Positions 5,530-53,630 of a DNA stretch of 64,000 nt are shown here, one piece after another. Source of the stretch: Promethearchaeota archaeon (lineage in GTDB: Archaea; Asgardarchaeota; Lokiarchaeia; Sigyniarchaeales; SOKP01). Numbering within the stretch: the stretch's first letter is position 1; every line of letters begins with the position of its first letter. Both the position numbers and the translations under genes were made by a program. The notes under the pieces were generated by a model. It was given only the letters and a program-made list of their open reading frames with translations, made no database searches and was not told the DNA's origin. The stretch is taken from the NCBI GenBank assembly GCA_029838195.1, contig JALGVJ010000012.1, positions 47,732-111,731 of the forward strand. The letters are read 5' to 3'.

Positions 5530-6294
5530 GTGGTAAAAATGATATGTGATGTGCATTGTCACGTGAATTTATATCTCACCTTAGATCAAATCATTGAGGA
5601 AGCTTTAAACGCTGGCGTGAATAAAATTATCGCCGTAGGAATGAGTTATATTGGTTTAAAACGCATTATTGAAATCTCGAGCCAACAGGATATCATTTAT
5701 CCGGCATTAGGAATCCATCCGGAGGAAGTCAAGATGAATAAAAATATCGAAAATCAAATGGAAAGCGCATGCGATTATATTAAAAAACATGCCGATAAAA
5801 TAGTTGCCATTGGAGAAATTGGGATTGACCATTATTTTATTAAAGAAAAAGAACTTTACCCCCTTCAAGAAAAGATTTTTAAAAAAATGCTTGAATTAGC
5901 TCAAGAATTAGCATTACCCGTCAATCTTCACACGAAAGGAGGAGAAAAACAAGTTTTTGATTTACTTCCCAGTTATTCAATACCGAATGTTAATATTCAT
6001 TGGTATTCGGGACCAGAAAAATATTTAAAAGAAGGAATGGATAGAGGCTATTACTTTTCCATTACTCCCGCTATTTCTTATTCTCCCGCCGTGCACAATA
6101 CCGTTGAAATGGTCGATATTTACCATCTTTTAGTGGAGAGTGATGGTCCTGTGAAATATAAAGGAAAAATTGGCACGCCTGCCATGATACGCCAAGTAAT
6201 TCGATCCATTTCCCTAATTAAAAACGTACCAGAAGGGGAAATTGAGGAGCAAATCTATCAAAACACGAGACACATTTTCCCTAAACTCTTTTAA
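5530..6294 (+). CDS. tatD: TatD-family hydrolase
   Basis: DVHCH, GIHP, IGEIGID, HWYSG, VESDGP. Confidence 0.9.
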   Translation: MVKMICDVHCHVNLYLTLDQIIEEALNAGVNKIIAVGMSYIGLKRIIEISSQQDIIYPALGIHPEEVKMNKNIENQMESACDYIKKHADKIVAIGEIGIDHYFIKEKELYPLQEKIFKKMLELAQELALPVNLHTKGGEKQVFDLLPSYSIPNVNIHWYSGPEKYLKEGMDRGYYFSITPAISYSPAVHNTVEMVDIYHLLVESDGPVKYKGKIGTPAMIRQVIRSISLIKNVPEGEIEEQIYQNTRHIFPKLF

Positions 6295-17803: not shown

Positions 17804-18042
17804 TTTAATCTCATTAAAAACAAGAAATTATTTGAAAAATTTCATTAAAATTATATTTTCTTGAATTAAGCAAATAATTGGAATGGTCATGAGAAAATTA
17901 TTAGAATAATGGACTTTATTGCCAACAAATTTAAATTAATTTCCCCTTATCTCTTTTTTTTTTTTAAATCATCATGAAATAATCAAAAATCGTTAAATTT
18001 TGAAAAATCGAAACGCAAGAGATGATTAGGAAGAGAAAAAAG

Positions 18043-18149
18043 CGCCCACAGCGGGATTTGAACCCGCGTCGCAGGAGTGACAGTCCCGATTCAGCCTCCC
18101 TGCCAAATAGCAGAACAAAGAATGCTAGACCGTGCTACACTATGTGGGC
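18043..18149 (-). tRNA. tRNA-Asp(GUC) with 32-nt intron at position 25/26 (18090-18121)
   Basis: Acceptor GCCCACA/TGTGGGC, anticodon arm CGGGA-CTGTCAC-TCCTG, T-arm GCGGG-TTCAAAT-CCCGC; relaxed BHB with helix TAGC/GCTG. Confidence 0.92.
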
Positions 18150-18937: not shown

Positions 18938-19039
18938 GGATTATCCCTAACTCCAAGAGATAGGATTATTTTTACGGTTAAATGAAAAATTTTATTTGAT
19001 TTCAATTATTATACTATTTAGACTCAATTATATTTGATT

Positions 19040-19144
19040 GGGCCTGTAATCTAGTCTGGATGTAGATTTCCGCATAGAAATTTTGCCAGAAAGGGTGCCC
19101 GGCTTCGGACTGGGATGTCGCAGGTTCGAATCCTGCCAGGCCCG
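19040..19144 (+). tRNA. tRNA-Arg(UCG) with 30-nt D-loop intron at 20a/21 (19062-19091)
   Basis: Acceptor GGGCCTG/CAGGCCC, CCCGG-CTTCGGA-CTGGG, GCAGG-TTCGAAT-CCTGC; BHB helix CTGG/CCAG with bulges ATG and AAA. Confidence 0.93.
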
Positions 19145-19455
19145 TTGATTTTCTTTTTCTTATTTTTATTTTTAATGATTTTTTCAATAATTTGGAATTA
19201 ATCATTCTTATCAGAAAACTGAATAAAATTAATGCACCGTAAGATAATAGGATTGAATTTCAGAATGTAAATTCTGATTCTTTTAATTTTTGAATAAGTT
19301 ATTTTTCGAATTCATTAATAATTTTTTCCTCTTATATGGAATGAGGCATTAAGATTAATATTTTTTCAAAACGACATTTAAATAGAAAATCTTAAATATT
19401 TTAAATATTAAATATTAAAAATTTAAATTAATCCTTTGAATAAAGTTTAACAAGC

Positions 19456-48714: not shown

Positions 48715-50832
48715 TTAAATTAAGAAAATAAGCATGGCACCAAAATGAATGATTCCTCCAATTAATAGAGCAATGGCGATTTCCATTAAAGAGATTTGAA
48801 TGGCATATTTCCAATTGGTCTGCCGAGCAATGATGATGATAGTGGCGAAACATGGAACGTAAAGCATCGTAACTAAAGCAAACGTAATCATTTGTATAGG
48901 TGTTAATAATTCAATGATACTTAATCCAAGAGAGGTCGCTAAGATACTAAGAAGGACTAAAGTCAGTTCTTTTCTAAGAATACCATAAAGCAAGAATACT
49001 CCCGTGATGGCAGGCAATCCTAACCAAAATACCGTGATGGGAGATAAAATGAAATTTATTGGTTCTAAAGCATTTAAAATCAAGGCAATTTCTAACAAGA
49101 TGCCGATAATAACGATTAAAGGCATAGATTTTAGTACAAATTCTTTAGTCCGCATCCATGTCTGTTTAAGGATGACCCCATAATTAGGAATGCGATATTC
49201 ATGCATTTCCATTATTAATTCTGTGCATTCGCCCGGCATTATTTTGTTTAAAATTTTCCCAAAAATAATCACGATGGTTAAATTAATGATTAAAAGGATG
49301 AGTACCCAAGTTAATCCTAAATATCTCCCTACTAATCCTAAAACAACTGTCATAACTGCCGCACATGGTATGAGAGATGTGAGGGCAATAGATATTTTTT
49401 TTTCTCTCTCTGTTTCCATTATCCTACAACCCGCACATGCAGGTACATTACATCCAAATCCTAATATCATGGGAATGATGGTTTTTCCATGAACCCCAAT
49501 GAAGTGCATGAAGCTGTCCATTAAAAAGGCTGCTCTTGGAAGATACCCGGAATCTTGTAAGATTTCAATCACCAAGAAAAAAGGAACGACATACACCAAC
49601 ACGCCCCCAATAGCTCCAAAGAATCCTCCTACAGCCCCGTCCCAAAAAATTATTACCACAAGATTTTCCGTACCATATGTTGTATAGACTTGTTCGCTCA
49701 ATGTCTCATAATATCCCTCCATTAATCCACCCAAATAATCACCTATCGTAAAAGTAAAAGTATAAATGCCGATTATCACGAGCACGAGGATAAAATACCC
49801 CCAAACAGAGTGGGTCGTAATATGATCTAATTTATCTGCAAACGTTTGTATTTTTATATCTTTTTTTGATTTTTGGATGAGGACTTTATCAATAACATTA
49901 TTTATATTATTGTAAATCTCTGATGATATGATGGTATGAATATCTTCTCCATGTAGCACCTCCAATTCCTCTCTGAATTTAACCACGGATTTCAAAATTT
50001 CTTCCGCCTGCTCTATATTTGAGATTAATTTAACGATTTCCTCATCATTTTCCAATAATTTAATGGCTAAGAATCTAGGGGGATATTTTACATCCTTTAA
50101 TACATTGCCTAATTTTTCTATTTTCGTTTTTAGAATCTTTATTTTGCTTTCTACTTCTCTTCCAAAGGAAGTGATTTTTGATAAGTCGGGAAATGGATAG
50201 GCATCCTTAAAAACTGAGGTAAAATTTTCAATTTCTAATTGAGAGAAAGAAGGTTCCACGTGAAAACGTCTTGAGATATCACGAGATTTTTCATGATTAT
50301 GATAATTCACTGCTCTTTTGTACACGACCATTTGAATTGCTTCTTCAAGTAATTGATGTACTCCTATTCCATGAACTGCGACTACGGGTAATACCGGAAA
50401 TTTAAACATATTTTGGAATTTTGCAAAATCGATATCCATATTCCGTTTTCTCAAGATGTCCATTTGATTAATTGCAAGAATCATCGGAATTTTTAGGTCT
50501 AATAATTGAAAAGTTAAGAAGAGATTTCGCTCCAAGTTGGTTACATCAATGACGTTAATTATTAGGTCTACTTCCCCAGAAATGATATATTCCCTACTAA
50601 CAATTTCTTCTAATGAATAGGTAGATAAACTATAGATTCCTGGAAGATCGACAATATTAAAATGAAATCCCAAAAAATCAAGATGTCCTTCCATTTTTTC
50701 CACCGTTTTTCCGGGCCAATTTCCTATTGTTTGGGATAAGCCCGTTAGTTGATTAAAAATAACCGATTTTCCCACGTTAGGATTACCCGCGAGTGCAATA
50801 TTTATCGAGCGTTTAGTGGAAAAATCTTTCAT
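48715..50832 (-). CDS. feoB: Ferrous iron transporter FeoB
   Basis: GNPNVGKS, GNWPGKTVE, DLPGIY, GFGCNVP, LYVPC; start taken as ATG 50832 (frame open to 50901). Confidence 0.95.
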   Translation of the reverse strand: MKDFSTKRSINIALAGNPNVGKSVIFNQLTGLSQTIGNWPGKTVEKMEGHLDFLGFHFNIVDLPGIYSLSTYSLEEIVSREYIISGEVDLIINVIDVTNLERNLFLTFQLLDLKIPMILAINQMDILRKRNMDIDFAKFQNMFKFPVLPVVAVHGIGVHQLLEEAIQMVVYKRAVNYHNHEKSRDISRRFHVEPSFSQLEIENFTSVFKDAYPFPDLSKITSFGREVESKIKILKTKIEKLGNVLKDVKYPPRFLAIKLLENDEEIVKLISNIEQAEEILKSVVKFREELEVLHGEDIHTIISSEIYNNINNVIDKVLIQKSKKDIKIQTFADKLDHITTHSVWGYFILVLVIIGIYTFTFTIGDYLGGLMEGYYETLSEQVYTTYGTENLVVIIFWDGAVGGFFGAIGGVLVYVVPFFLVIEILQDSGYLPRAAFLMDSFMHFIGVHGKTIIPMILGFGCNVPACAGCRIMETEREKKISIALTSLIPCAAVMTVVLGLVGRYLGLTWVLILLIINLTIVIIFGKILNKIMPGECTELIMEMHEYRIPNYGVILKQTWMRTKEFVLKSMPLIVIIGILLEIALILNALEPINFILSPITVFWLGLPAITGVFLLYGILRKELTLVLLSILATSLGLSIIELLTPIQMITFALVTMLYVPCFATIIIIARQTNWKYAIQISLMEIAIALLIGGIIHFGAMLIFLI

Positions 50833-51024
50833 TTTATTTTTTCTCGTTTGATTATTACTTAAATGTCTACAGGTTTTAATAAAAGGCATTTTAACCACCA
50901 ATTACTATTCCATGATTCATGTGATTTTCTAAATTAATAACAAGGTGTTTAATAAAATCTGGCATGACTCAAGCTTTTATTTATTATTCATATTTATTCC
51001 AATATAAAATTTTGAATAATTGAA

Positions 51025-51306
51025 TTAACTATAATTGACTAAGATTTTTGAAGCGATACCTCTACCCAATACCATGCAACTTCCCTTGACTTCGATTTCA
51101 ACTGGTCCTCGAAAAGGAGCAGCGCGCTTTTTGATAATTTCGACTCCAGGTACGATTCCTAAATTAGCTAAGCGTTGCTTGGCATTTAATCCGGCATTTA
51201 CTTTGCACACTTTTAACTTTCTTCCATTTTTACAATTAATTAATAAATTGGGTAAAGAATCTTCCCTAGAAGGCGTTGATTCTTTTTCAATGTTTTTACT
51301 TAACAT
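51025..51306 (-). CDS. feoA: FeoA
   Basis: RLANLGIVPG, APFRGPV, LGRGIA. Confidence 0.9.
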   Translation of the reverse strand: MLSKNIEKESTPSREDSLPNLLINCKNGRKLKVCKVNAGLNAKQRLANLGIVPGVEIIKKRAAPFRGPVEIEVKGSCMVLGRGIASKILVNYS

Positions 51307-51362
51307 TTTAACTCCTTAATGCTTTAATTCCAATTAATTAAATTATTGATTCTAAATAAATA

Positions 51363-51376
51363 TTAGGTTTACCTAA
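51363..51376. promoter_or_regulatory. DtxR/IdeR-like operator upstream of feoA-feoB
   Basis: Palindrome TTAGGT-TT-ACCTAA just downstream of a minus-strand TATA (TTTAAATA, ~51385-51392). Confidence 0.65.
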
Positions 51377-51729
51377 ATTGAATATATTTAAAAAAAATTT
51401 AATTATTAGATAAGCAGTTTTAATAAATAAGTAATAAATTATTAATTAAAATTAAAAATTAAATTATTCAAAATTGAAACTGTAAAAAGATTTTTTAGGG
51501 AAATATGATTCCCTTCTTGATAACAATAATTTCATTGAATATTTTGAAAATTATAGGGACTCTTTTAATCAATTTCTTAAAAACAAAACCTTTAAGATTG
51601 AGCACAACAATTTCATTATAAGATTAAAATGAGTATTTTTGACCAATCTTAGCATAAATTTCCCATAAAATGTGTTTAAGCTCCGTTCGAATAAAGGAAA
51701 ATAGATTGTAAAAGAAAAACAAAAATTAA

Positions 51730-52008
51730 TTAATCAAAATCTTTAACGCAATTTCCATTGCAATTAACTATAATCTTTGAAGCAATTCCCCTTCCTAAAG
51801 CGAGAGAGGTTCCTTTTACCTCAATTTCAACAGGACCTTGAAAGGGAGCTGCTTTTTTTTTAATGATTTTTACACCAGGTATAATTCCCAAATTAGCGAG
51901 CCTACTTTTTGCTTTCCGACCAGCATTAACTTGGATAACAGTTAATTCAGCACCATTTTCACATTCAGTAAGGCATTTAATTAAGGAAGTTTTTTGCCGT
52001 GAATTCAT
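51730..52008 (-). CDS. feoA: FeoA (second paralog)
   Basis: RLANLGIIPG, APFQGPV, LGRGIA. Confidence 0.9.
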   Translation of the reverse strand: MNSRQKTSLIKCLTECENGAELTVIQVNAGRKAKSRLANLGIIPGVKIIKKKAAPFQGPVEIEVKGTSLALGRGIASKIIVNCNGNCVKDFD

Positions 52009-52208: not shown

Positions 52209-53630
52209 ATGAGCGATTTAGAAGGTTTAACTAGAAATTTAATTAGAAAAGGGTATTCAGAAGAGCAGATAGTGGAGAGATTGGTTGAAGAATATCTCGA
52301 TTTCAAGGAAATCACGAAAGAGAAAGCAAAAGTATTAGCAAGAGCCGTGTTAGAAGAGTGTAAAAACAGTGATACTTCTTCAATTGGTAATCCTTTTATT
52401 AAGCGTTTGTTAACGATAAATGAAGCGAACATCACGGTAGGAAAACAAGGAGTGGGTTGTAGGGGAGCAGGGGATTTTTTTGTGCACAAGCTTATTGCAA
52501 GTCTTTCCGAAACAGAAAAAATTCCTTTCCTTTCTCCACAATCCTTAGATGATGCTGGTGCCGTCCGGTTAAAAGATATGGCAAATCTTGGAGGCATGTC
52601 AGAAGGAATGGAGGATTTATTTATTGTTTCTAAAATGGAAGGGATTCATTCTCGTTTAAGTGATTTTCCCTTTATTTGCGGCTTTCACGTAAATGCATGT
52701 AATTAATATTACATCTGCGTAGCGAGAGCTGCTTTAAGAGATCTATATGTAAAGGGTGCTCGTCCCATTTCCATCATGATAGACATTCATTTAGGAGATG
52801 ATGCTGACGTTGGAAAGTTATTTGATTTCATGGCTGGCGTGTCAACAATTTCCGAATTGACGGGCGTGCCAATTACAGCAGGATCTACCCTCAGAATAGG
52901 AGGAGACATGGTGATTGGCAATAGGATCGTGGGGGGCATCGCTGCCGTCGGGCTTGCGAAAAAAAATCTTTTAGTACGTAGAAATATTCAAGAAGGAGAT
53001 AAAATATTAATGACAGAAGGAGCTGGTGGAGGAACCATTACCACGACGGCCATATACTCTGGAAATCATGATATCGTAAAAGAAACTTTAAACTTGAAAT
53101 TTTTAGAGGCATGCGAGCTTCTCTTAAATTCCGATTACCTGGATAAAATTCATGCAATGTGTGATGTCACAAATGGTGGATTACGAGGAGATTTATATGA
53201 AATAAATCATGAAGCCGATTGTGGGGTGGTAGTTCATGAAAAACGTGTTCGAGAATTAGTAAACCCTGCAGTCTTGAGATTACTTGAAGAAGCCAGAGTT
53301 GATTATTTAGGTGTCTCTTTAGATGCTCTTTTAATTTATTGTGAAGAATCCATTGCAAGTAAAATCATTTCTGATTTAAATGCCCGAAATATAAAATGCA
53401 CAGAAATAGGACATGTGGATAACTCAAATGAGATTACCATGATATTTGAAGAAAAAGGAGAAAAAAAGGTTTTACCTCGTTTTCGAGAATCAGCTTACAC
53501 TAAAATCAAGCAAGAAATAGGAGAAGATACACCAGAAGCAATGCCCTTCATGGAACAAAAGGTAGAAAAAGCGGCTCAAGCGGCCTTAGAAAAGAGAAAA
53601 TTCATAATTGATTTCATGAAAAAGCATTAA
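52209..53630 (+). CDS. AIR synthase-related (PurM/HypE-like) protein, join(52209..52692,52723..53630), 463 aa after splicing
   Basis: GVGCRGAGDF, DDAG, EGIHSRLSDFPF, GSTLRIGGD, DVTNGGLRGD; both ORFs share a frame and the only stop lies inside a BHB-bounded 30-nt insert. Confidence 0.85.
52693..52722 (+). other. Putative bulge-helix-bulge intron in an mRNA
   Basis: 9-bp exon-exon stem, 3-nt bulge AGC, 4-bp helix ACGU/GCGU, AAA bulge/loop, 7-bp inner hairpin with TAA in its loop. Confidence 0.8.

What the first reader, a model, noticed from the sequence alone, without database searches (positions are those of the whole stretch)
52678..52732. Candidate bulge-helix-bulge intron inside a protein-coding gene of an Asgard-type archaeon
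Seen: ORFs 52209-52706 and 52776-53630 are in one frame, and the only stop (TAA 52704-52706) is in the loop of a hairpin. The region folds as an exon-exon stem GCGGCUUUC(52678-86)/GAGAGCUGC(52724-32), a 3-nt bulge AGC(52721-23), a 4-bp helix ACGU(52687-90)/GCGU(52717-20), AAA(52691-93) opening onto a small internal loop, and an inner stem AUGUAAU/AUUACAU. Established: archaeal splicing endonuclease cuts after the second nucleotide of each bulge. Applying that rule removes exactly 30 nt (52693-52722), keeps the frame, deletes the stop and gives ...PFICGFHV-T-RAALRDLYVKGARP..., which fits my recollection of this family's motif. The same rule correctly splices both tRNAs in this window (30 and 32 nt, relaxed motifs). 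The best-known archaeal mRNA BHB introns are in crenarchaeal cbf5. Inference: EndA/RtcB-type mRNA splicing of a metabolic gene in a close relative of eukaryotes, reminiscent of non-spliceosomal HAC1/XBP1 splicing and possibly regulatory. Pipelines would call such genes split or pseudogenes, so more may be hidden.
Basis: partly seen in the sequence, partly recalled or inferred. Interest (0 to 1): 0.95.

Follow-up and report, generated by a model that had tools for sequence, protein, structure and literature searches.

The report
tRNA-type mini-intron in Asgard enzyme gene
A 30-base insert shaped like the introns archaea cut out of tRNAs interrupts an enzyme gene of an Asgard archaeon. Dozens of related genomes show that the insert must be removed from the message for the protein to be made; the papers I could search report this for only one other archaeal protein gene (cbf5).

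Summary
Window 52209-53630(+) is a single AIR-synthase-family gene interrupted by 30 nt (52693-52722). The insert carries the only in-frame stop and sits in a bulge-helix-bulge (BHB) fold.

Evidence from related sequences:
- About 88 orthologues are colinear (...GFHV-T-RAAL...).
- 28 of 135 species genomes of the same Promethearchaeota family, and 38 metagenome contigs, carry a 29- or 30-nt insert at exactly this site.
- In 46 distinct copies, 97% of the predicted pairs form (32-55% when the 3' partners are slid by 1-3 columns). Six inner-helix pairs show compensatory changes. In 15 of the 18 genome-derived copies folded, the minimum-energy fold is the textbook hBHBh' motif.
- Cutting after the second bulge base restores a 458-477 aa frame in all 20 copies tested, including the frame-breaking 29-nt forms.
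- Both halves are under purifying selection (dN/dS 0.09-0.17).
- The exon-exon helix is kept through synonymous codon choice only where the insert is present.
- The genome encodes two full-length EndA-family proteins and RtcB.

Limits:
- I could obtain no RNA evidence.
- The window's own copy is the most relaxed member.
- The regulatory (HAC1-like) idea is untested.

This scan has noted BHB mRNA introns before in this genome and in other Asgard genomes, and the 29-nt form of this same intron in another genome. The searchable papers report coding-sequence cases only for crenarchaeal cbf5.

The parts
52209..52692 (+). Exon 1 of the AIR-synthase-family gene (161 codons plus the first base of the Thr codon); ends ...TGC GGC TTT CAC GTA A
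   Evidence: ORF list and translation. Colinear with residues 1-161 of intact orthologues.
52693..52722 (+). 30-nt BHB intron, phase 1, carrying the in-frame TAA (52704-52706)
   Evidence: Absent from about 88 colinear orthologues. Present at the same site as 29/30 nt in 20 fetched loci, 28 of 135 family genomes and 38 metagenome contigs. Its removal restores a 463-aa frame.
52723..53630 (+). Exon 2 (CG of the Thr codon, then RAALRDLYVKGARP... to stop TAA 53628-53630); holds the DX4GAXP-type motif DLYVKGARP and the AIRS_C domain
   Evidence: Pfam AIRS 27.9 bits (cut-off 24) and AIRS_C 54.4 bits (cut-off 23.1). dN/dS of this half against the congener is 0.05, with dS saturated.
52678..52686 (+). 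5' strand of the exon-exon (outer) helix, GCGGCUUUC
   Evidence: Pairs 9 of 9 with 52724-52732. Intron-bearing genes have 8-9 of 9 pairs (19 of 19); only 6 of 76 intron-less genes reach 8.
52687..52690 (+). 5' strand of the 4-bp central helix, ACGU
   Evidence: Pairs with GCGU 52717-52720. 98% of cells paired in 46 copies.
52691..52693 (+). 5' three-base bulge AAA; predicted cut between 52692 and 52693
   Evidence: Cleavage between the 2nd and 3rd bulge residues is the published rule (PMC2738675). It gives Thr ACG in all 20 copies.
52697..52714 (+). Intron hairpin AUGUAAU-UAAU-AUUACAU. It is separated from the bulge and central helix by a small internal loop (UGC/CU), so the inner helix does not abut the bulge.
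   Evidence: In 15 of 18 relatives the inner helix abuts the bulge directly.
52717..52720 (+). 3' strand of the central helix, GCGU
52721..52723 (+). 3' three-base bulge AGC; predicted cut between 52722 and 52723
52724..52732 (+). 3' strand of the exon-exon helix, GAGAGCUGC

Best explanation
Window 52693-52722 is an archaeal bulge-helix-bulge intron inside the coding sequence of a PurM/AIR-synthase-superfamily gene of a Promethearchaeota (Loki-type Asgard) archaeon.

Proposed mechanism:
1. In the pre-mRNA, exon 1 (GCGGCUUUC) pairs with exon 2 (GAGAGCUGC).
2. A 4-bp helix (ACGU/GCGU) is then flanked by two 3-nt bulges.
3. The splicing endonuclease EndA cuts after the second base of each bulge.
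4. RtcB joins the exons (CACGUAA^CGAGAGC). This yields ...GFHV-T-RAALRDLYVKGARP..., and probably a circular 30-nt intron.

Unspliced message ends at the TAA in the intron loop, so splicing is obligatory for the enzyme.

The intron most likely arose once near the base of this family and has since been lost precisely many times.

What is shown: the motif, its conservation and covariation, the exon constraint, selection on both halves, and the presence of the enzymes. What is inferred: the cleavage and ligation themselves.
For: 1. Same-site inserts. The insert is present in 20 fetched loci, in 28 of 135 species genomes in 6 of 13 genera (one per genome), and in 38 metagenome contigs. About 88 orthologues are colinear without it.

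2. Structure.
- In 46 distinct copies, 97.2% of cells pair, against 32-55% when the partners are slid.
- Six of nine inner-helix pairs show compensatory changes, and 0 of 500 shuffles reach the observed values on four of the five measures (2 of 500 on the fifth) (the 18-copy set gives the same picture).
- In 15 of the 18 genome-derived copies folded, the minimum-energy fold is exactly hBHBh'.
- Nine chance matches to the search pattern in unrelated DNA do not fold this way.

3. Frame restoration. The published cutting rule (PMC2738675) restores a 458-477 aa frame with V-T-R in all 20 copies, including the 29-nt forms that shift the frame.

4. Selection. Pairs in which both genes carry the insert have dN/dS 0.09-0.17 in both halves. 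The 29-nt pair L028/L030 has dS 0.69.

5. Exon constraint.
- His CAC 20 of 20 with the insert, 20 of 88 without.
- Thr ACG 20 of 20 with, 10 of 88 without.
- Arg AGR 20 of 20 with, 32 of 88 without.
- The outer helix has at least 8 of 9 pairs in 19 of 19 genes with the insert and in 6 of 76 without.
- In 9 phylogenetically independent contrasts, helix complementarity follows the insert about 8 to 0 (median p 0.008).

6. Machinery. The genome has a 202-aa EndA with Tyr/His/Lys motif residues, a 199-aa paralogue without the His, and one RtcB. Asgard archaea are reported to have the (alpha-beta)2 EndA with the L1 loop, which accepts relaxed motifs (PMC5829648).

7. Copy number and assembly.
- This is the only copy of the gene in the genome.
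- The insert is identical in a second assembly that differs at 6 of 4586 bases.
Against: No RNA-level observation:
- No database protein matches this lineage's exon 2 at near-identity apart from the split 305-aa call, so no spliced form was seen.
- The spliced-junction pattern has 0 matches in the metagenome contigs.

The window's own copy is the weakest member:
- It has the lowest model score, 56.9 bits.
- Its inner helix does not abut the 5' bulge.
- Its BHB conformer lies 2.1 kcal/mol above the minimum-energy fold and makes up about 1% of the ensemble.

Three of the 46 copies have an A.G mismatch in the central helix.
Confidence: 0.87

Rival explanations
1. Translational bypass. Ribosomes take off at Val GUA (52689-91), skip 30 nt and land on the GUA at 52719-21, as in T4 gene 60 or the mitochondrial 'byp' elements. 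The product would be ...GFHV-A-RAAL... with no RNA cutting.
For: A CGUA direct repeat flanks the insert. A matching 'landing' GUA is present in 43 of 46 copies. A hairpin lies in the gap. Ala or Ser at this position occurs in 9 of 88 intron-less orthologues.
Against: - The repeat follows automatically from a palindromic ACGU central helix with bulges that begin with A.
- Three copies have GGA instead of GUA at the landing site.
- No stop codon directly follows the take-off codon.
- Bypass does not predict the 9-bp exon-exon helix kept by synonymous codon choice only in insert-bearing genes, nor the exact 3-4-3 geometry.
Confidence: 0.04
2. In this particular genome the intron has degenerated and the gene is a young pseudogene, or is spliced only poorly, even though the intron is functional in relatives.
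For: - The window's copy has the lowest covariance-model score of 28.
- Its inner helix is shifted away from the bulge.
- An alternative fold is 2.1 kcal/mol more stable.
Against: - After excision all 463 codons are free of other lesions.
- The outer helix (9 of 9), the central helix (4 of 4) and both bulges are intact.
- The downstream half has dN/dS 0.05 against the congener.
- It is the only copy of the gene.
- Heteromeric EndA with the L1 loop is reported to cut relaxed motifs (PMC5829648).
Confidence: 0.06
3. The insertion is tolerated without removal: the gene is expressed as two polypeptides (165 aa plus a restart at ATG 52776), or by stop read-through or frameshifting.
For: Gene callers produce two ORFs. 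The 30-nt form is in frame.
Against: - A restart at 52776 would drop RAALRDLYVKGARP, the DX4GAXP-type motif.
- Some insert-bearing relatives have no Met there: L028 reads ISILV.
- The 29-nt forms would need a frameshift as well as read-through.
- Neither route explains the covarying BHB or the exon helix constraint.
Confidence: 0.02
4. Assembly or sequencing artefact, or a strain-specific insertion at the CGTA repeat.
For: The short direct repeat CGTA flanks the insert.
Against: - The insert is identical in a second assembly.
- Homologous inserts occur in 28 species genomes and 38 metagenome contigs from many projects.
- The downstream half shows no decay.
Confidence: 0.01

Closest known systems
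BHB intron in the cbf5 (pseudouridine synthase) pre-mRNA of Crenarchaeota (Watanabe 2002; Yoshinari 2006; Yokobori 2009, PMC2738675)
   Same: - A small intron in a protein-coding sequence, bounded by a BHB-type motif.
- Predicted cuts between the 2nd and 3rd bulge residues.
- Phase 1 (after the first base of a codon), inside a highly conserved motif.
- Linked to heteromeric EndA.
- Patchy distribution, explained by gain and loss.
- Gene callers mis-annotate the gene.
   Different: - Different host gene (AIR-synthase superfamily, function unknown).
- Different phylum (Promethearchaeota, Asgard).
- Most copies here are strict canonical hBHBh', whereas most cbf5 motifs are described as unconventional (PMC2738675).
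- cbf5 splicing has cDNA and in vitro support; this one has none.
BHB intron in the 5' UTR of Haloferax volcanii HVO_1309 (PMC7714728)
   Same: An mRNA substrate of the splicing endonuclease outside tRNA and rRNA, with a circular excised intron.
   Different: It lies in a UTR, not in coding sequence, so the reading frame does not depend on it. It is 46 nt long and was shown experimentally.
tRNA introns of Asgard archaea (bioRxiv 10.64898/2026.10.13.758758; PMC5829648)
   Same: Same predicted machinery and motif. Asgard tRNA genes are heavily interrupted, and two interrupted tRNA genes lie in this window.
   Different: The substrate here is an mRNA. The exon helix is built from codons, so it constrains synonymous sites.
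Unconventional HAC1/XBP1 mRNA splicing in eukaryotes
   Same: Non-spliceosomal endonuclease cuts followed by ligation, with RtcB as the ligase for XBP1 (my own knowledge). A short intron whose removal changes the reading frame or product.
   Different: The endonuclease is IRE1, not the tRNA endonuclease. It recognises two stem-loops, not a BHB, and is regulated by stress. Nothing here indicates regulation, so this is an analogy only.

Membership tests
Archaeal BHB (EndA-type) intron | Two 3-nt bulges on opposite strands separated by a 4-bp helix | tested here: met
   Window: ACGU/GCGU with AAA and AGC. In 46 copies the central helix is 98% paired and the bulge columns sit in fixed positions.
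Archaeal BHB (EndA-type) intron | Flanking helices h (exon side) and h' (intron side) closing both bulges (strict hBHBh') | tested here: inconclusive
   The outer helix is 9 of 9 in the window. The inner helix abuts the bulge in 15 of 18 relatives, where the minimum-energy fold equals hBHBh'. In the window's own copy an internal loop intervenes, giving a relaxed bulge-helix-loop form.
Archaeal BHB (EndA-type) intron | Cutting between bulge residues 2 and 3 gives a functional, colinear product | tested here: met
   All 20 copies give a 458-477 aa frame with V-T-R, as in intron-less orthologues. The rule is from PMC2738675.
Archaeal BHB (EndA-type) intron | Splicing endonuclease and RNA ligase encoded by the organism | tested here: met
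   PF01974 hits of 100.7, 66.4 and 29.6 bits (cut-off 27). PF01139 RtcB at 553 bits.
Archaeal BHB (EndA-type) intron | Spliced junction and excised (circular) intron observed in RNA; cleavage by EndA in vitro | not testable with these tools
No spliced form was found in the protein or contig collections.
PurM / AIR-synthase-related superfamily (ThiL, SelD, HypE, PurM, PurL) | AIRS N-terminal and AIRS_C domains above Pfam cut-offs; DX4GAXP-type motif | tested here: met
   PF02769 54.4 bits (cut-off 23.1) and PF00586 27.9 bits (cut-off 24). DLYVKGARP is read directly from the sequence; the motif name is from my own knowledge.
ThiL, SelD or HypE (specific enzymes) | Score above the NCBIfam equivalog cut-off | tested here: not met
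   An intact orthologue scores thiL 59 (cut-off 184), selD 47.5 (125) and hypE 43.4 (252). The best solved relative is HypE at E = 1.4e-6. The specific function is unknown.
Translational bypass element (T4 gene 60 / mitochondrial byp) | Matching take-off and landing codons, with a stop codon directly after take-off | tested here: not met
   GUA/GUA match in 43 of 46 copies but GGA in 3. The codon after take-off is AAU/AUU, not a stop.

The most novel reading that the evidence does not exclude
This intron is one of many. In this family of Asgard archaea the tRNA-splicing endonuclease and RtcB routinely splice ordinary protein-coding mRNAs, possibly dozens per genome, with introns gained and precisely lost over time. 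The closest prokaryotic relatives of eukaryotes would then have an obligatory, protein-enzyme-based mRNA splicing layer that genome annotation currently misreads as split genes or pseudogenes.
Probability: 0.5. Interest if true: 0.9.

Novelty: new member of a known kind. Interest (0 to 1): 0.8.

Why it matters
In the papers I could search, endonuclease-type splicing inside an archaeal coding sequence is documented only for crenarchaeal cbf5. A 2020 study states this outright and adds one 5'-UTR case (PMC7714728).

Here the same kind of intron sits in an unrelated gene in Asgard archaea. The comparative support is unusually complete: covariation, exon-side synonymous constraint tied to intron presence, frame-breaking variants under purifying selection, and about nine or more independent losses.

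If RNA work confirms it:
- mRNA splicing by the tRNA machinery exists in the closest archaeal relatives of eukaryotes.
- Precise intron loss can be studied in a prokaryote.
- Asgard gene catalogues need correcting, because this gene is called as a 165-aa orphan plus a truncated 305-aa protein.

The gene-level consequence is modest, since the enzyme's function is unknown. The value lies in the mechanism and its phylogenetic position.

Tried and rejected
1. RNA evidence.
- A protein-database search with exon 2 found no spliced full-length form of this lineage. The next hit after the split 305-aa call is 79% identical.
- The degenerate spliced-junction pattern had 0 matches in the metagenome contigs, while the unspliced pattern had 48, of which 38 are this gene. 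That collection appears to be DNA, so this says nothing about splicing.

2. De novo census of BHB-plus-ORF-join events in the whole genome.
- With loose motif rules, the observed counts equalled the chance expectation, because boundaries between adjacent genes dominate.
- With a strict 'minimum-energy fold equals hBHBh'' rule, only 2 sites passed on the plus strand, neither of them joining ORFs, and the window's own relaxed intron fails that rule. The minus strand was not run.
- The census is uninformative. It is not evidence against other introns.

3. tRNA side-claim.
- ARAGORN default and Rfam gathering thresholds find no tRNA in the window.
- ARAGORN in intron mode finds two, but deletion scans give many alternative boundaries.

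4. Repeated-element idea. blastn-short with all intron variants finds nothing similar elsewhere in the genome.

5. Considered and rejected: intein (the insert has a stop and is not always in frame); group I or II intron (30 nt is far too small); assembly artefact.

Full report
**Observation.**
- The frame 52209-53630(+) has a single internal stop, TAA 52704-52706.
- That stop lies in the UAAU loop of the hairpin AUGUAAU/AUUACAU.
- GCGGCUUUC (52678-86) pairs 9 of 9 with GAGAGCUGC (52724-32).
- ACGU (52687-90) pairs with GCGU (52717-20).
- AAA (52691-93) and AGC (52721-23) are the two 3-nt bulges.
- The topology is that of an hBHBh' motif: each bulge lies 3' of its strand of the central helix.
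- The 75-nt region folds better than all 200 shuffles (z = -3.85).

**The gene and the organism.**
- Exon 2 carries the Pfam domains AIRS (27.9 bits, cut-off 24) and AIRS_C (54.4 bits, cut-off 23.1).
- An intact orthologue scores far below the cut-offs for ThiL, SelD and HypE. The nearest solved structures are HypE proteins at E = 1e-6 to 1e-4.
- The gene is therefore a PurM-superfamily enzyme of unknown specific function. Sources call it 'AIR synthase-related protein'.
- The intron lies six codons upstream of DLYVKGARP, a DX4GAXP-type motif (the motif name is from my own knowledge).
- Record titles of orthologous contigs name Promethearchaeota or Promethearchaeia, formerly Lokiarchaeota. 'Asgard-type archaeon' is correct.
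- The genome is 4.5 Mb, 33% G+C, in 94 contigs.

**Same-site inserts in relatives.**
- A six-frame search of 40 related genomes found the orthologue in nearly all. Most copies were uninterrupted and colinear (...CGFHV-T-RAALRDLYVKGA.P...).
- Five further genomes were broken at the same residue.
- Read at the DNA level, 20 fetched loci carry an insert at exactly this position: 30 nt in 17 and 29 nt in 3. About 88 loci lack it.
- A covariance model of the motif finds one full-length match per genome in 28 of 135 species genomes of the family, in 6 of 13 genera.
- A congener of the window's genome lacks the insert.
- It was not found in the 16 genomes of the three other families of the order that were searched.
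- A pattern scan of metagenome contigs found 38 more copies of this gene. It also found 9 chance matches in unrelated DNA, and those do not fold as a BHB.

**Structure.**
- In 15 of the 18 genome-derived copies, the minimum-energy fold is exactly: 9-bp outer helix, 4-bp helix, two 3-nt bulges, 9-10-bp inner helix.
- On 46 distinct copies, 97.2% of cells form standard pairs, against 32-55% when the 3' partners are slid by 1-3 columns.
- Six of nine inner-helix pairs show changes on both sides (30 cells), and 0 of 500 shuffles reach the observed values on four of the five measures (2 of 500 on the fifth) (the 18-copy set gives the same picture).
- Caveat: the metagenome copies were retrieved with a pattern that fixes parts of the exon helix and the 5' central strand. 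Invariance there is partly by construction; the inner helix was free to vary.

**The cutting rule.**
- The cbf5 paper states that cleavage falls between the second and third bulge residues (PMC2738675).
- Applied to all 20 loci, the rule removes 29 or 30 nt and yields an open frame of 458-477 aa reading V-T-R at the junction.
- Intron-less orthologues have Thr there in 79 of 88 cases.
- The 29-nt forms shift the frame, so they cannot be tolerated as in-frame insertions.

**Selection.**
- Six pairs in which both genes carry the insert have dN/dS of 0.09-0.17, and both halves are constrained. The 29-nt pair L028/L030 has dS 0.69 and dN/dS 0.15 in the downstream half.
- No intact second orthologue is present in the window's genome.

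**Exon-side constraint.**
- All 20 insert-bearing genes use His CAC, Thr ACG, Arg AGR and Ala GCY at the junction. Intron-less genes use these in 20, 10, 32 and 46 of 88 cases.
- The outer helix has 8-9 of 9 pairs in 19 of 19 insert-bearing genes. Only 6 of 76 intron-less genes reach 8.
- Over 9 phylogenetically independent contrasts, complementarity goes with the insert about 8 times and never against it (median sign-test p = 0.008).
- EndA recognition predicts this pattern. The rival explanations do not.

**History.**
- On the protein tree the insert needs at least 9-11 changes of state (FastTree).
- The intron sequences are clearly homologous to each other.
- One origin near the base of the family followed by repeated precise loss is the simplest reading. 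Spread by recombination is not excluded.
- The intron is not a repeated element in the genome.

**Machinery.** The genome encodes:
- a 202-aa EndA with the Tyr/His/Lys motif residues;
- a 199-aa paralogue lacking the His, which is beta-like (my reading of the motifs);
- a 106-aa near-copy of that paralogue;
- one RtcB.

Asgard archaea are reported to have the (alpha-beta)2 EndA with the L1 loop associated with broad substrate range (PMC5829648).

**The window's own copy.** It is the outlier.
- It has the lowest model score, 56.9 bits.
- An internal loop lies between the 5' bulge and the inner hairpin.
- The BHB conformer is at -18.0 kcal/mol against a minimum-energy fold of -20.1.
- The outer helix, central helix and both bulges are intact, and the 463 codons carry no other lesion.
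- I read it as a relaxed but probably functional motif. I give a small probability that this lineage's copy is decaying.

**Independent assembly and annotation.**
- A second public assembly, differing at 6 of 4586 bases, has the identical insert.
- Its gene caller made two genes there, of 165 and 305 aa.

**Rivals.**
- Translational bypass is suggested by the CGUA repeat. That repeat follows from a palindromic central helix, three copies lack the landing codon, and bypass does not explain the exon helix constraint.
- Split expression or read-through fails on the 29-nt forms, and it would lose the conserved motif.
- An artefact is excluded by the number of independent sources.

**Literature.**
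- Five searches found no report of BHB introns in Asgard protein-coding genes.
- A 2020 study says cbf5 was then the only other mRNA case besides its own 5'-UTR intron (PMC7714728).
- A 2026 preprint on Asgard tRNA introns does not treat mRNAs.

**Earlier notes of this scan** (unchecked AI notes).
- They list BHB introns in several other genes of this same genome and of other Asgard genomes, and the 29-nt form of this very intron in another genome.
- I partly checked one, rpl11. In G000 the first 18 codons are in a different frame from the rest, about 28 nt apart, while most relatives are colinear.

**What failed.** No RNA runs could be obtained. No spliced form turned up in the protein or contig collections. 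My de novo genome-wide scans were uninformative. The tRNA intron lengths were not verified.

**Verdict.** This is a real, conserved, selected BHB intron in a coding sequence, almost certainly removed by EndA and RtcB. It is a new member of the kind known from cbf5, in a phylum where it matters more. Regulation is pure speculation at present.

Noticed in passing
window 18042-18149 (-) and 19039-19145 (+): Two interrupted tRNA genes. ARAGORN finds them only in intron mode, with doubtful calls (Leu-gag with a 15-nt intron, Pro-cgg with a 31-nt intron). Rfam at gathering thresholds and default ARAGORN find no tRNA in the whole 64 kb. The true intron positions look non-canonical, for example near position 26/27 in the second gene.
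   Followed up: partly
G000 contig C47, about 5655-5720 (-), outside the window: The only rpl11 gene has its first 18 codons (MSTGGKGKVVVKALVTGG) in a different frame from the rest (..ASGGPPIGPAVGP..), separated by about 28 nt. The L11_N profile match starts at position 8 here but at 1-4 in most relatives. G006 has a TAA inside its match.
   Followed up: partly
L113:1492-1812 (-) = G000 contig C53: A 106-aa ORF that is a near-copy of the middle of the beta-like EndA paralogue on contig C8. It could be a truncated duplicate, or contamination (the genome is rated 7.9% contaminated).
   Followed up: no
G019:C61:12798-13286 (+), 2 kb upstream of L006's gene: A second match to residues 1-163 of this protein (61% identity, one TAA) inside a 770-aa open frame. 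It may be a duplicated N-terminal module fused to another gene.
   Followed up: no
window 49209-52008 (-); L117:1-2800: Upstream on the opposite strand lie FeoB and two FeoA genes (Pfam calls in the near-identical public contig). No functional link to the AIRS-family gene was examined.
   Followed up: no
L126, L157, L085 (positions 40-43 of alignment A3): Three intron copies read ..CGGAU instead of ..CGUAU, giving an A.G mismatch at the end of the central helix. In two of the three the minimum-energy fold loses the central helix. These may be weakened or differently recognised variants.
   Followed up: no
G000 C63:16737 and C26:26271 (+): These are the only two plus-strand sites whose minimum-energy fold is a strict hBHBh' at -12 kcal/mol or below in my scan. 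Both are G+C-rich and lie outside long ORFs, so they are probably tRNA or rRNA processing sites.
   Followed up: no
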